The translations under genes were made by a program, and so were the position numbers. DNA of 37,292 bases from a virus (Duplodnaviria > Heunggongvirae > Uroviricota > Caudoviricetes), in IMG/VR virus record IMGVR_UViG_2703718872_000034. The stretch is one strand, 5' to 3'. Positions 8,678 to 37,292 of the stretch are shown here, piece by piece (positions within the stretch are counted from its first letter, which is position 1; each line of letters opens with the position of its first letter). The notes beneath the pieces are model-generated. The model was not told the origin of the DNA, made no database searches, and saw nothing but the letters and a program-made list of their open reading frames with translations.

Positions 8678-9103
8678 ATGGCAGAAACTCAGATGAGCAT
8701 GTTTGGTGGTGACAGTGAGCAACTGCACGCCCTTATCGACCGCCTTGATGACATCCCTGATGATGTTCTCAAAAAGAACTGGCCGCGGACCCTGTCTGAA
8801 CTGGTTGAAGTCACCGGCGCAGAACTTCAGCGTCAGGGGATTGAGCCGGTACTGGCCGGTAAACTGGCACGCAAGGTGGCTGCGGCTCAGGCAGCCTATA
8901 TGGGCGGACGGGGTTATTACCTGCCGGTCGGGGAATCTCTCTTTGCCGAGCTGCGAAACAATGAGATATTTTCGCGCTGGGACCGGGGCGAGAAGATTGA
9001 ATCCCTTCGCCGCCATTACCGGATGTCAGAAACCCAGATTTATACCGTCATACGTGAACAGCGCCGTCTGCATCTGGCAAGAACGCAACCGCCACTTTTC
9101 TGA
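8678..9103 (+). CDS. Mor/C-family transcriptional activator of middle/late genes
   Basis: 141 aa; C-terminal HTH-like segment SLRRHYRMSETQIYTVIREQRR typical of Mor/C family; located just upstream of lys; GGAGG RBS; cannot decide between Mor and C. Confidence 0.7.
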   Translation: MAETQMSMFGGDSEQLHALIDRLDDIPDDVLKKNWPRTLSELVEVTGAELQRQGIEPVLAGKLARKVAAAQAAYMGGRGYYLPVGESLFAELRNNEIFSRWDRGEKIESLRRHYRMSETQIYTVIREQRRLHLARTQPPLF

Positions 9104-9174
9104 TATTCCGCAAAGCCTGCCGCCTTTCCTTCACCGTTACGCTGACTCAGAGAACATCATGAGACAGCGTAACA

Positions 9175-16306: not shown

Positions 16307-16427
16307 CGGTCAGTGGCGGGGGTCGAACCCGCATACATGATCCACCCGGAGGCAGGCACCGACTTTACCAGTTAAGCGTACACTGACCGCCTGTTTATTT
16401 TATATTCATCCTTTATGCGGAGGCAAT

Positions 16428-16901
16428 ATGTCATCCATTGATGCCGCTGTCGTTGTTGACGTTACGCGTCTCCAGCGGGTCTTTGCCCGGCTTCAGTTTG
16501 TGGGTGGCGGGAAAGACCTGGCCCGCAGTGTGGCGTCCAGCCTTCTGTCATCCTCAGAAATGGCGTTTGAACAGGAAAAAGAGCCGGACGGCGAACGCTG
16601 GCATGACTGGTCAGATCCTTACCGCAAGTGGCGTACCCGTAAGGGATACATGCCCGGCAAAATCCTGACGCTGAACGGCGATCTGGCCCGACGCCTGACC
16701 ACGGATTATGGCGATACCTGGGCGCTGATTGGATCAAATGAGCCTTATGCGGCCATTCATCAGTGGGGTGGCCTGCCAGGTATGCCGCCTGGACCGGCGG
16801 CCATTGGTGCACGTCCGTATATGGGTTTTGATCAGGTGGCAGAGCAGGAGATCATGGACGAAATCAGAAAACGCTTTAAAAAGGCCACAGAAACACCTTA
16901 A
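16428..16901 (+). CDS. virion morphogenesis protein, Mu G-like (gp31)
   Basis: 157 aa; position after F; GGAGG RBS. Confidence 0.7.
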   Translation: MSSIDAAVVVDVTRLQRVFARLQFVGGGKDLARSVASSLLSSSEMAFEQEKEPDGERWHDWSDPYRKWRTRKGYMPGKILTLNGDLARRLTTDYGDTWALIGSNEPYAAIHQWGGLPGMPPGPAAIGARPYMGFDQVAEQEIMDEIRKRFKKATETP

Positions 16902-35822: not shown

Positions 35823-35993
35823 TTAATGCACGTTTTGTGTATTTTCCCTCCGGGGAGAACAGGCAGGACATATCAGCATCCTGAAACAGGAAGCATTTTT
35901 TGGTTTGTATGTCTTGCCATTTTGAGATCGAGAACGGCGATAGATGAGCTGTAAGGGAGTCTTACAGGCAGGGCAAACAGGCTCTTTATCCAT
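35823..35993 (-). CDS. small Cys-rich zinc-finger-like protein (56 aa), divergent from com
   Basis: Minus-strand ORF with AAAAGGAG RBS before ATG at 35993; CPAC...C...CPAC arrangement. Confidence 0.35.
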   Translation of the reverse strand: MDKEPVCPACKTPLQLIYRRSRSQNGKTYKPKNASCFRMLICPACSPRRENTQNVH

Positions 35994-36179
35994 GATAAAG
36001 ATCTCCTTTTTATGCATCTCTGCTTTACAGGAGACCGGGGAATATCATAGGATACGCCACGAGCTCGAAGTAAAGCATTGATGCAAGTTTTTACAGATTG
36101 ACCCAGCATAGTTCCAGCTATGCTGGGTTTCCCTTTTATGTAGTATCCTGTTGATTTGAAACATACTACATATACGCGC

Positions 36180-36357
36180 GATCCTACCTTCACTGGATAA
36201 AAAGTCAATAAAATGATCATTTTATGATCGTTTTCACTCGCTAACTCTTCGTTTTCTTTAAGTAAATAATCACCTCCCTGAATCATTGTTGATGACTTTT
36301 CAATCTATTTGTTGTATCAATTAAACAAATCGAATCGATCGTTTTTGTCGATCGATT
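36180..36357. promoter_or_regulatory. com/mom upstream regulatory region with five GATC (Dam) sites and a perfect 9-bp inverted repeat AATCGATCG-N7-CGATCGATT
   Basis: GATC at 36180, 36215, 36226, 36337, 36350; palindrome at 36333..36357 about 45 bp upstream of com start; Mu mom is known to be controlled by Dam-methylated GATC sites upstream of its promoter. Confidence 0.5.
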
Positions 36358-36400
36358 GCATGAGAAAGGCATCAACAACAAAGCAGGAGGTTATGCGGCC

Positions 36401-36601
36401 ATGTATCGAAACATACGGTGCCGACACTGCAATAAGCTACTGGCACGGGCCAGTTTCAGTTATCTGGAAGTAAAATGTCCGCGCTGTAAAACCCTCAATC
36501 AAATCACATCTCCGAGCGCCACAGAGCACCCCACATACACAAGGAAATCCTGTCGTGGGGAACAGAAAGCAAGTCACATCCCGAATCATCAGCACGCCTG
36601 A
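36401..36601 (+). CDS. com: Com, zinc-finger translational activator of mom
   Basis: 66 aa from ATG 36401 with AGGAGG RBS; [27 protein letters not shown] closely resembles Mu Com; overlaps mom start. Confidence 0.8.
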
Positions 36602-37292
36602 ACTTATTCGCTATAACGACAATATCGTTGGTTATGGCTCCCGTGAGTTGCGGGTTGAGACAATAAGTTGCTGGCTGGCCAGACTGGTCATCGTCAATAA
36701 ACATTACAGCCACCGTTTCGTAAATAACTCCTACCTTCATCTGGGCATATTTTCAGAACGGGAACTTGTTGGCGTAATGCAATGGGGCTACGCCCTTAAC
36801 CCAAACAGTGGTGCACGCGTCGTAACGGGTACGCAGAACCGAGAATATATGGAGCTTAACCGGCTATGGCTGCATGACTGTATGCCGAGAAACTCCGAAT
36901 CAAGGGCAATCAGTTACGCGCTCAAGCTAATCAGACAGCTTTATCCGCAGGTACAGTGGGTTCAGTCGTTTGCAGATGAGCGTTGTGGCTGTCTTGGTGT
37001 CGTGTATCAGGCAAGCAATTTTGATTATGTAGGCAGCCATGAATCAACATTCTATGAACTTGATGGCGAGTGGTATCACGAGATTTGCAGGAATGCCATT
37101 AAACGAGGCGGACAACGAGGTGAACATCTGAGGGCTAATATCGACAGGGCCAGTGTTCATAAGTTCCGACAGTTTCGTTACATCCGGTTTCTGAACAAGA
37201 GGGCCAGAAAACGCCTCAACACAAAGCTATTCAAAGTCCAGCCTTACCCAAAACCACAAACTGTTAAAACCGGTTTGAAAGAGATTGGGTGA
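36555..37292 (+). CDS. mom: DNA modification protein Mom
   Basis: 245 aa from GTG at 36555 overlapping com 3' end, as in the Mu com-mom operon; position as last gene after gin; stop at window end. Confidence 0.75.

What the first reader, a model, noticed from the sequence alone, without database searches (positions are those of the whole stretch)
36180..36400. GATC cluster and perfect GATC-containing palindrome immediately upstream of com
Five GATC sites lie within about 220 bp upstream of com. Two of them are embedded in a perfect 9-bp inverted repeat, AATCGATCG-N7-CGATCGATT (36333..36357), located about 45 bp before the com start. In Mu, mom expression is repressed unless Dam-methylated GATC sites upstream of the promoter block OxyR binding. 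This architecture suggests a methylation-sensitive operator, but its layout with a perfect palindrome so close to the start codon differs from what I recall for Mu, so a different repressor could be involved.
Basis: partly seen in the sequence, partly recalled or inferred. Interest (0 to 1): 0.5.

Follow-up and report, generated by a model that had tools for sequence, protein, structure and literature searches.

The report
Dam/OxyR operator upstream of com–mom
The GATC-containing palindrome in front of com is very probably the prophage's copy of a known methylation-sensitive OxyR binding site (as in phage Mu mom and E. coli agn43), placed about 27 bp closer to the gene than in Mu.

Summary
In detail: GATC at 36180, 36215, 36226, 37 and 36350, and a perfect inverted repeat AATCGATCG-N7-CGATCGATT at 36333-36357, 43 nt before the com ATG (36401). 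The five sites are not one unit. Only the last two lie in the ~110-bp com control module (36292-36400) shared by all relatives. The other three lie in variable cargo DNA.

The palindrome is not new. Mu has AATCGATC-N9-GATCGATT (its GATC sites 2 and 3). E. coli agn43 has ATCGATCG-N7-CGATCGAT and P22 gtr has GATCG-N7-CGATC; all are Dam-sensitive OxyR half-sites with GATCs 13 bp apart. A partner half-site lies 31 bp upstream (36307-36321), the spacing seen in Mu, agn43 and gtr. The pair occurs upstream of com only in enterobacterial hosts.

The layout does differ from Mu. The last GATC is 51 nt from the com ATG, against 78 in Mu. No Mu-type C-activator box is present. The operator probably overlaps the core promoter, whose exact position is unresolved. 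A different repressor is not supported. No binding or methylation data were available.

The same module precedes com followed by Mom, a C5 methyltransferase or an N6/N4 methyltransferase. Verdict: a variant of a known system, of moderate interest.

The parts
36338..36352 (.). Predicted OxyR half-site 2, ATCGTTTTTGTCGAT. It carries both Dam targets (GATC 36337-36340 and 36350-36353, 13 bp apart).
   Evidence: It has the same form as the agn43 half-site ATCGTTTATATCGAT, gtr ATCGGTAACAACGAT and ATCGCTTGTATCGAT, and Mu ATCGGTAATACAGAT. It matches ATAGnTnnnAnCTAT at 9/10 positions when C3/G13 are allowed. It is invariant in 13 variants. Across 19 distinct com-linked 17-mers, G4 is found in 15/19, T6 in 15/19 (p=0.0017), A10 in 14/19 (p=0.0006) and C12 in 15/19.
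36333..36357 (.). It is half-site 2 plus symmetric flanks.
   Evidence: (I14).
36307..36321 (.). Predicted OxyR half-site 1, ATTTGTTGTATCAAT (7/10, no GATC), 31 bp upstream of half-site 2 (start to start).
   Evidence: An offset of -31/-32 gives the best or joint-best partner in Mu (8/10), agn43 (9/10), gtr (10/10), L039 and L095 (9/10), and L037, L092 and L107 (8/10). The chance of scoring 7 or more at one fixed offset is 0.018. The sequence is invariant in the class.
36292..36320 (+). Promoter candidate A (agn43-like): -35 ATGACT 36292-36297, 17-bp spacer, -10 TATCAA 36315-36320. The predicted start is near 36327, which puts the operator at about -20 to +26.
   Evidence: It is the best + strand sigma-70 candidate shared by all four class variants tested (8.6-9.7 bits; the true gtr promoter scores 8.2 and agn43 12.0). 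Both hexamers are invariant, and ATGAC marks the left edge of the conserved module. Inferred, not mapped.
36345..36375 (+). Promoter candidate B (gtr-like): -35 TTGTCG 36345-36350 or TCGATC 36348-36353, -10 CATCAA 36370-36375. The predicted start is near 36382, which puts half-site 2 at about -44 to -30.
   Evidence: Sister modules have a clear -10 just after the pair: TATCAT in L182, TATACT in L036/L037, TATAGT in L038. Class members L016, M18 and L024 have TATCAT at this spot and L005 has TATCAA. The window's copy matches only 3/6, and this stretch is the most variable part of the module.
36386..36391 (+). Shine-Dalgarno AGGAGG of com.
   Evidence: Sequence; invariant.
36401..36601 (+). com, the zinc-ribbon translational activator (66 aa).
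   Evidence: Pfam PF10122 Zn_ribbon_Com, E=1.9e-12; PGAP annotation.
36555..37292 (+). mom, the DNA-modification enzyme. It overlaps the end of com, and the window ends at its stop codon.
   Evidence: Pfam PF25680 Mom, E=2.5e-77; 80% protein identity to Mu Mom.

Best explanation
The palindrome is the GATC-bearing half of a two-half-site binding site for the host regulator OxyR (about 36307-36352) that gates transcription of the com-mom operon.

When the two GATCs (36337, 36350) are unmethylated, an OxyR tetramer binds both half-sites and blocks RNA polymerase. When Dam has methylated them, OxyR cannot bind and the operon can be transcribed. Com then permits translation of mom.

The element is homologous to region I of the Mu mom promoter. 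In this lineage, however, about 27 bp are missing between it and com, including the Mu-type C-activator box. The operator therefore most likely overlaps the core promoter itself. It would cover either -10/+1, as in agn43, or the -35 region, as in P22 gtr, rather than sitting upstream of an activator site.

Shown here: sequence identity of the core with experimentally defined operators, the partner half-site at the canonical spacing, conservation, and restriction to enterobacterial hosts. Inferred: OxyR binding, methylation sensitivity, and the position of the promoter.
For: 1. Direct sequence comparison. Mu reads AATCGATCGgtaatacaGATCGATT, preceded by ATCAATTAAA as in the window. agn43 reads tATCGATCGtttatatCGATCGATa. 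P22 gtr OxyR(A) and OxyR(C) read GATCG-N7-CGATC. PMC2909390 shows experimentally that in gtr each such pair, 13 bp apart, lies in one OxyR half-site and that methylation abolishes binding.

2. A partner half-site at -31/-32 is the best-scoring offset across lineages, including the window (7/10; P=0.018 at a fixed offset).

3. In 19 distinct com-linked GATC-N9-GATC elements the free positions follow ATnGnTnnnAnCnAT, while positions 5, 7, 8, 9 and 11 drift.

4. The palindrome is invariant in 13 variants, while the adjacent 16 bp vary.

5. The 13-bp pair lies upstream of com in 5/6 Enterobacterales loci and 0/9 loci from Pseudomonas, Desulfovibrio, Rhodospirillaceae and others (Fisher p=0.002). 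This fits a host-factor site.

6. It is unique in the window even at 3 mismatches, so it is not a recurrent phage activator or repressor box.

7. Layout: the last GATC lies 51 nt from the com ATG in the window and 78 nt in Mu. There is no ccATAAcCcC box. Sister modules place a good -10 starting 11-13 bp after the start of the second GATC.
Against: - There are no binding, footprint, reporter or methylation data for this locus. The one methylome paper on a strain that carries the prophage (95JB1) does not list its 28 unmethylated GATCs.
- The window's half-site has G rather than A at position 10.
- The partner half-site matches only 7/10 and has lost the GATC that Mu and agn43 carry there.
- The promoter is unresolved. 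Candidate A lacks the -7 T. Candidate B matches 3/6 in the window and lies in the least conserved stretch.
- Whether the C-type activator (8678-9103) acts here is unknown. Its box could not be defined.
- The lineages in the conservation and enrichment tests are related to each other, so the p-values are optimistic.
Confidence: 0.72

Rival explanations
1. The palindrome is the operator of a phage-encoded protein. Candidates are the C-type late activator (8678-9103), another repressor, or the small divergent zinc-ribbon protein.
For: It is a perfect dyad of the size used by dimeric HTH proteins. Under promoter candidate B it sits about where Mu C binds (dyad centred at -43.5; PMC2582627). The window's activator is only 39% identical to Mu C, so its specificity could differ. 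A divergent Cys-rich ORF lies nearby.
Against: - The motif is unique in the window at up to 3 mismatches, whereas a late activator must also act at the lysis, head and tail promoters.
- The identical core occurs at chromosomal agn43 and in P22 gtr, which lack these phage proteins.
- The pair tracks host clade rather than phage lineage.
- The divergent cargo gene is different or absent in relatives that keep the palindrome unchanged.
- The 154-aa ORF has no Pfam match and is frameshifted in the window.
Confidence: 0.1
2. The palindrome acts as a nucleic-acid hairpin. It would be either a structured element in the com leader RNA or a terminator for leftward (antisense) transcription.
For: A 9-bp stem forms in the predicted RNA. 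The consensus scan lists it as terminator-like on the minus strand, with tail CGATTTGTTT. Under promoter candidate A it would be transcribed.
Against: - The leader fold is not more stable than shuffles (z=-0.84; 38 of 200 shuffles fold as well).
- There is no U-run after the stem on the + strand, and no Rfam family matches.
- In other lineages the arms are fixed only at the GATC/OxyR-contact positions. Mu's arms are AATCGATC/GATCGATT with a 9-nt spacer. Variation follows a protein-contact pattern (G4, T6, A10, C12), not compensatory pairing.
- No gene upstream on the minus strand would need terminating there.
Confidence: 0.06
3. It is an inherited relic. The sequence would be conserved only because the prophages are recent relatives, and would have no present function in this lineage.
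For: Most E. coli copies are 95-99% identical over the region. Both promoter candidates in the window are weak. L211-type relatives have lost the operator yet keep com and the payload.
Against: - Within the same alignment the 16 bp next to the palindrome have changed at many positions, while all 24 bp of the palindrome are invariant.
- The element persists in Com lineages only 50-70% identical, with drift confined to non-contact positions.
- com and mom are intact.
Confidence: 0.08

Closest known systems
Phage Mu mom promoter region I (Dam/OxyR control of Pmom)
   Same: Homologous DNA: ATCAATTAAA...AATCGATC-N9-GATCGATT, with GATCs 13 bp apart. The downstream operon is the same, com overlapping mom, with 80% Mom identity. 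The partner half-site has the same spacing. Control of Pmom by host Dam and OxyR is published (PMC3378877; PMC2909390).
   Different: Mu has three GATCs (-109/-91/-78 from the com ATG) and the window has two (-64/-51). Mu has about 40 extra bp between operator and SD. They carry the C box (ccATAAcCcC, dyad at -43.5), the T-run and TAAGAT. The window has none of these. In Mu the operator lies upstream of the activator site. Here it must overlap or abut the core promoter.
E. coli agn43 (flu) Dam/OxyR phase-variation operator
   Same: The core ATCGATCG-N7-CGATCGAT is identical in arms and spacing. The partner half-site is 32 bp upstream and overlaps the -10. Under promoter candidate A the geometry is the same: the operator spans the -10 and the early transcribed region.
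   Different: agn43 has a third GATC in half-site 1 at +1, while the window has TATC there. agn43 has a strong promoter, TTGTCC-17-TAGAAT (12 bits against 8.6). It is a chromosomal adhesin gene, not a phage modification operon. Phase variation has not been tested here.
Salmonella/P22 gtr (and opvAB) Dam/OxyR switches
   Same: GATC pairs 13 bp apart sit inside single OxyR half-sites of the form GATCG-N7-CGATC, with half-sites 32 bp apart. In gtr one pair sits at -46/-33 and overlaps the promoter (PMC2909390). Under promoter candidate B the window's pair falls at about -45/-32. Both are phage-borne and both control a surface or DNA modification function.
   Different: gtr has three half-sites and four GATCs, which give alternative activating and repressing OxyR positions. 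The window shows one pair and one partner, with no second pair 64 bp upstream.

Membership tests
Dam-methylation-sensitive OxyR operator (mom / agn43 / gtr type) | A 15-bp OxyR dimer half-site matching ATAGnTnnnAnCTAT. | tested here: met
   36338-36352 ATCGTTTTTGTCGAT matches 7/10 strictly and 9/10 with the C3/G13 substitutions that all GATC-type half-sites carry. agn43 and gtr score 10/10 and Mu 9/10 on the same scale.
Dam-methylation-sensitive OxyR operator (mom / agn43 / gtr type) | A second half-site at tetramer spacing (about 32 bp start to start in agn43 and gtr). | tested here: met
   36307-36321 scores 7/10 at offset -31. The same offset is best in Mu, agn43, gtr and 9 other com lineages. 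The chance of this at a fixed offset is 0.018. It is the weakest partner of the set apart from L038 (6/10).
Dam-methylation-sensitive OxyR operator (mom / agn43 / gtr type) | GATC sites placed inside the half-site, at its two ends, 13 bp apart. | tested here: met
   GATC at 36337 and 36350. The placement is identical in agn43, gtr and Mu.
Dam-methylation-sensitive OxyR operator (mom / agn43 / gtr type) | The host has Dam and an enterobacterial OxyR. | tested here: met
   The prophage is found in 233 of 5426 complete E. coli genomes. The pair is restricted to Enterobacterales com loci (5/6 against 0/9, p=0.002).
Dam-methylation-sensitive OxyR operator (mom / agn43 / gtr type) | OxyR binds unmethylated but not methylated DNA, and expression depends on dam and oxyR. 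| not testable with these tools
   This needs EMSA or footprinting and reporter fusions. The methylome paper for carrier strain 95JB1 gives no site list.
Dam-methylation-sensitive OxyR operator (mom / agn43 / gtr type) | The operator overlaps or adjoins the regulated promoter. | tested here: inconclusive
   Both promoter candidates are overlapped by the operator. Sister modules have a clear -10 starting 11-13 bp after the start of the second GATC. No start site has been mapped for the window.
Mu-type C-dependent late promoter (Pmom architecture) | A C-binding dyad with the ccATAAcCcC box centred near -43.5. | tested here: not met
   The box was derived from the four Mu late promoters. There is no + strand match at 2 mismatches or fewer between 36250 and 36400.
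Mu-type C-dependent late promoter (Pmom architecture) | A weak -35, a 19-bp spacer with a T6 run, -10 TAAGAT, and about 44 bp between the last GATC and the -10. | tested here: not met
   There is no T-run or TAAGAT. Only 51 nt separate the last GATC from the com ATG, against 78 in Mu.
Mu-type C-dependent late promoter (Pmom architecture) | A com-mom operon with overlapping reading frames downstream, and a Mor/C-family activator in the phage. | tested here: met
   PF10122, PF25680 and PF08765 all match. The activator is 39% identical to Mu C.
Intrinsic terminator | A G+C-rich stem followed by a U-run on the transcribed strand. | tested here: not met
   On the + strand the stem is followed by GCATGAG. 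Only a weak minus-strand match exists, with no gene to terminate.

The most novel reading that the evidence does not exclude
In this short version of the module the OxyR operator sits directly on an activator-independent sigma-70 promoter. The prophage's DNA-modification cassette (Mom here; a C5 or a promiscuous N6 methyltransferase in sister phages) would then be an agn43-like heritable ON/OFF epigenetic switch. Alternatively it could be a copy-number timer: OxyR keeps the single prophage copy unmethylated and silent, and replicative transposition outruns OxyR so that Dam methylates the new copies and turns them on late. Either way it would not be a classical C-activated late gene. Lysogen populations could then contain a subpopulation with hypermodified DNA.
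Probability: 0.18. Interest if true: 0.7.

Novelty: new variant of a known kind. Interest (0 to 1): 0.4.

Why it matters
Mom and the methyltransferases that replace it are toxic, restriction-evading DNA modifiers. How they are kept silent in lysogens is understood only for Mu itself.

This analysis suggests that one small Dam/OxyR-gated com module is reused in enterobacterial Mu-like prophages. These include the Sp18-type element common in O157 and other STEC. The module sits in front of at least three unrelated modification enzymes.

In most of these phages the operator sits on the promoter and there is no Mu-type activator box. If that is confirmed, control of these genes would look more like bacterial phase-variation switches (agn43, gtr) than like the textbook Mu late promoter. 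Several simple experiments could test this.

Tried and rejected
1. blastn of the region against phages found no Mu match upstream of mom. The homology appeared only by direct reading and MAFFT.

2. I looked for the palindrome as a recurrent box at other promoters in the window and found none.

3. I looked for the Mu C box and for any motif shared between the com upstream region and other + strand intergenic gaps. Nothing convincing appeared. Only the regions before lys and before 16428 share TAC(G/A)CTGAC.

4. I first assumed a partner half-site at the 22-bp 'oxidised' spacing (36316-36330, 7/10). The cross-lineage scan showed -31/-32 to be the consistent offset.

5. I first favoured CATCAA as the -10, then found it to be the least conserved stretch, then found comparative support for it again. 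It is left open.

6. I sought direct methylation evidence in the 95JB1 SMRT paper and its supplements, but no site list is held.

7. Bolker & Kahmann 1989, Hattman & Sun 1997 and Casadesus & Low 2006 are not held. The Mu OxyR footprint coordinates are therefore not cited.

8. Rfam and RNA folding gave nothing.

9. An EHEC TSS dataset was located, but I could not place this prophage in that strain.

Full report
**Observation.** The window ends with a com-mom operon. com runs from 36401 to 36601 (Pfam Zn_ribbon_Com, E=1.9e-12). mom runs from 36555 to 37292 (Pfam Mom, E=2.5e-77). GATC occurs at 36180, 36215, 36226, 36337 and 36350. AATCGATCG-N7-CGATCGATT at 36333-36357 is a perfect inverted repeat.

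By composition alone the cluster is only mildly unusual. It is the densest 221-bp window, with Poisson P of 7.5e-4 per window and about 0.1 after scanning. The palindrome's 16-base core is unique in the window even with three mismatches allowed.

**Context.** The window is a Mu-like prophage found in 233 of 5426 complete E. coli genomes. It is 100% identical to one in strain 2012EL-2448 and is common in O157 and other STEC. I take it to be the Sp18 type described for O157 Sakai (PMC2669165; PMC3299994); this is an inference. It encodes one Mor/C-family activator (8678-9103), which is 39% identical to Mu C and 27% identical to Mor.

**The five GATCs are two separate things.**
- Relatives with unrelated cargo upstream of com (M18 = L004, JE86 = L005) share homology with the window only from about 36292 to com.
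- JE86-type phages lack the three upstream GATCs, and M18 keeps two of them.
- In O157 those three sites fall inside an annotated divergent 154-aa ORF. That ORF is frameshifted in the window and has no Pfam match.
- They also coincide with a leftward promoter-like site, TTGACT-16-TAGGAT.
- The com control module is therefore about 36292-36400, and it holds only the GATC pair in the palindrome.

**The palindrome is conserved, known sequence.**
- blastn missed it, but Mu reads ...ATCAATTAAATCGATCGgtaatacaGATCGATT..., that is AATCGATC-N9-GATCGATT. These are its GATC sites 2 and 3, 13 bp apart.
- The K-12 agn43 operator reads tATCGATCGtttatatCGATCGATa. Its arms and spacing are identical to the window's.
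- P22 gtr has GATCGgtaacaaCGATC and GATCGcttgtatCGATC.
- Broadbent et al. (PMC2909390) showed for gtr that each such pair lies within one 15-bp OxyR dimer half-site. They also showed that Dam methylation abolishes OxyR binding. They note that Dam and OxyR also control Mu mom.
- A five-way MAFFT alignment puts the window, Mu, agn43 and two sister modules in register over both half-sites.

**A full operator.** I scored ATAGnTnnnAnCTAT, allowing the C3/G13 substitutions that GATC-type half-sites carry, at every offset from the GATC-pair half-site. A partner 31-32 bp upstream is the best or joint-best offset in these loci:

| Locus | Partner match |
|---|---|
| gtr | 10/10 |
| agn43 | 9/10 (contains its -10 and GATC-I) |
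| L039, L095 | 9/10 |
| Mu | 8/10 |
| L037, L092, L107 | 8/10 |
| window (ATTTGTTGTATCAAT, 36307-36321) | 7/10 |

The probability of 7 or more at one fixed offset is 0.018. The predicted operator is therefore 36307-36352.

**Selection pattern.**
- In 13 distinct variants of the E. coli class the 24 bp ATCGATCGTTTTTGTCGATCGATT are invariant. The next 16 bp are the most variable part of the module.
- Among 19 distinct GATC-N9-GATC elements upstream of com-like genes, the positions not fixed by GATC follow the OxyR consensus. G4 occurs in 15/19, T6 in 15/19 (p=0.0017), A10 in 14/19 (p=0.0006) and C12 in 15/19. Positions 5, 7, 8, 9 and 11 drift.
- This is a protein-contact pattern, not a stem-pairing one. 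The sequences are related to each other, so the p-values are optimistic.

**Host restriction.** I scanned species-representative genomes with a Mom alignment. Among loci with a recognisable com, the 13-bp pair is present in 5 of 6 Enterobacterales. It is present in 0 of 9 from Pseudomonas, Desulfovibrio, Rhodospirillaceae, Neptunomonas and others (Fisher p=0.002). This fits a site read by host Dam and OxyR rather than by a phage protein.

**How the layout differs from Mu.**
- The last GATC is 51 nt from the com ATG in the window and 78 nt in Mu.
- The alignment shows Mu carrying about 40 extra bp between operator and SD. These hold the C box (ccATAAcCcC, derived; dyad at -43.5 per PMC2582627), the T-run and the -10 TAAGAT.
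- The window has no such box.
- This short layout is not peculiar to the window. L036-L038, L092 (Edwardsiella) and the Com-anchored loci L170-L215 all have the pair at about -64 to -67 and -51 to -54.
- Those loci carry a good -10 (TATACT, TATAGT or TATCAT) that starts 11-13 bp after the start of the second GATC. There the half-site lies on the -35/spacer of the promoter.

**Promoter in the window: unresolved.**
- Candidate A is ATGACT-17-TATCAA (36292-36320). It is the best + strand sigma-70 match shared by all four class variants tested. It scores 8.6-9.7 bits on a crude matrix that scores the true gtr promoter 8.2 and agn43 12.0. Both hexamers are invariant, and ATGAC marks the left edge of the module. 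It would put the operator at about -20 to +26, as in agn43.
- Candidate B has its -10 at 36370-36375. That hexamer is TATCAT in L016, M18 and L024, TATCAA in L005, and only CATCAA in the window. It looks like the sister modules' TATCAT displaced by about 9 bp. It would put half-site 2 at about -44 to -30, as in gtr.
- Either way the operator overlaps the RNA-polymerase site. I could not define the C-type activator's box, so whether the promoter depends on that activator is unknown.

**Rivals.**
- A phage-protein operator is disfavoured by three results. The motif is unique in the window. The same core occurs at agn43 and gtr. The divergent cargo gene varies while the palindrome does not.
- An RNA or terminator role is disfavoured. 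The fold gives z=-0.84 and there is no + strand U-run and no Rfam hit. The variation pattern also argues against it.
- A functionless relic is disfavoured by the sharp contrast between the invariant palindrome and its variable neighbour.

**Limits.**
- No binding, reporter, start-site or methylation data exist for this locus in what I could read.
- The 95JB1 methylome paper reports 28 GATC positions not detected as methylated but does not list them.
- The primary Mu OxyR papers are not held, so I give no published footprint coordinates.
- My placement of the Mu half-sites at about -100 to -86 and -68 to -54 is computed. It assumes +1 at L001 position 1247.

**Verdict.** The 'methylation-sensitive operator' reading is supported. 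The 'different repressor' reading is not supported. The 'layout differs from Mu' reading is supported. This is a variant of a known system and is of moderate interest.

Noticed in passing
L002 3704-4910; L170, L176, L177, L179, L182 (about 1301-2500); window 36401-37292: The same short Dam/OxyR-com module precedes different payloads at the mom position. These are Mom (PF25680), a C5 cytosine methyltransferase (PF00145; also in the Mu-like phage inserted in Stx phages LC727895 and LC727881), and a DPPY N6/N4 methyltransferase (PF01555; 29+ IMG/VR loci). The payload start overlaps the end of com at the same point in each.
   Followed up: partly
L211 about 1165-1300 (3 loci): These are variants of the N6-MTase module in which the whole GATC operator is deleted (acaaatcaatttgtTATCAT). 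The -10, com and payload remain. They are natural operator-less controls.
   Followed up: no
window 36181-36225: An 18-bp perfect palindrome, ATAAAATGATCATTTTAT (36208-36225), is centred on GATC 36215. It abuts the -35 of a leftward promoter-like site, TTGACT (36208-36203)-16-TAGGAT (36186-36181), whose -10 overlaps GATC 36180. It is degenerate in M18. It may be a separate, possibly methylation-sensitive control for the leftward cargo gene.
   Followed up: partly
window 35823-36286 (minus strand): PGAP calls this a frameshifted hypothetical gene. The O157 version is an intact 154-aa ORF with no Pfam hit. A small zinc-ribbon ORF (ATG at 35993, SD AAGGAG, CPAC...CPAC) is intact in both. The long ORF contains three strong palindromes, so it may be spurious.
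   Followed up: partly
window 36024-36138 (+ strand): A promoter-like site, TTTACA-18-TAGGAT (36024-36053), is followed by a strong terminator-like hairpin with a T-run (36100-36129, 11-bp perfect arms). Together they could give a small RNA of about 75 nt, antisense to the leftward transcript. The hairpin sequence differs in L002 but still pairs.
   Followed up: no
L036, L037, L038 about -35 to -18 from the com ATG: The com leader in these sister modules has a small hairpin. It reads GCCAC..GTGGC in L036 and GCCG..CGGC in L038, an apparently compensatory change. It is absent from the window's leader.
   Followed up: no
window 36373-36381; L012: The CAA repeat in the com leader varies in length (caacaacaa in the window, caacaacaacaacaa in L012). 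L015 has a 1-nt deletion in the AAA run between TATCAA and the palindrome. Small spacing changes are therefore tolerated.
   Followed up: no
window 9137-9145 and 16381-16389: The regions upstream of the endolysin gene and of the gene at 16428 share TAC(G/A)CTGAC with a CTTTnCC about 9 bp upstream. These may be the late-promoter elements of this phage. com lacks them.
   Followed up: no
L182 about 1270-1285 and L001 1208-1216: The 9-mer TAACCACAC, which forms part of Mu's C box and -35, occurs in the L182 com leader just upstream of the SD. The window has CAACAACAA there. This hints that Mu's promoter segment is an insertion relative to the short modules, or that the short modules carry a deletion.
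   Followed up: no
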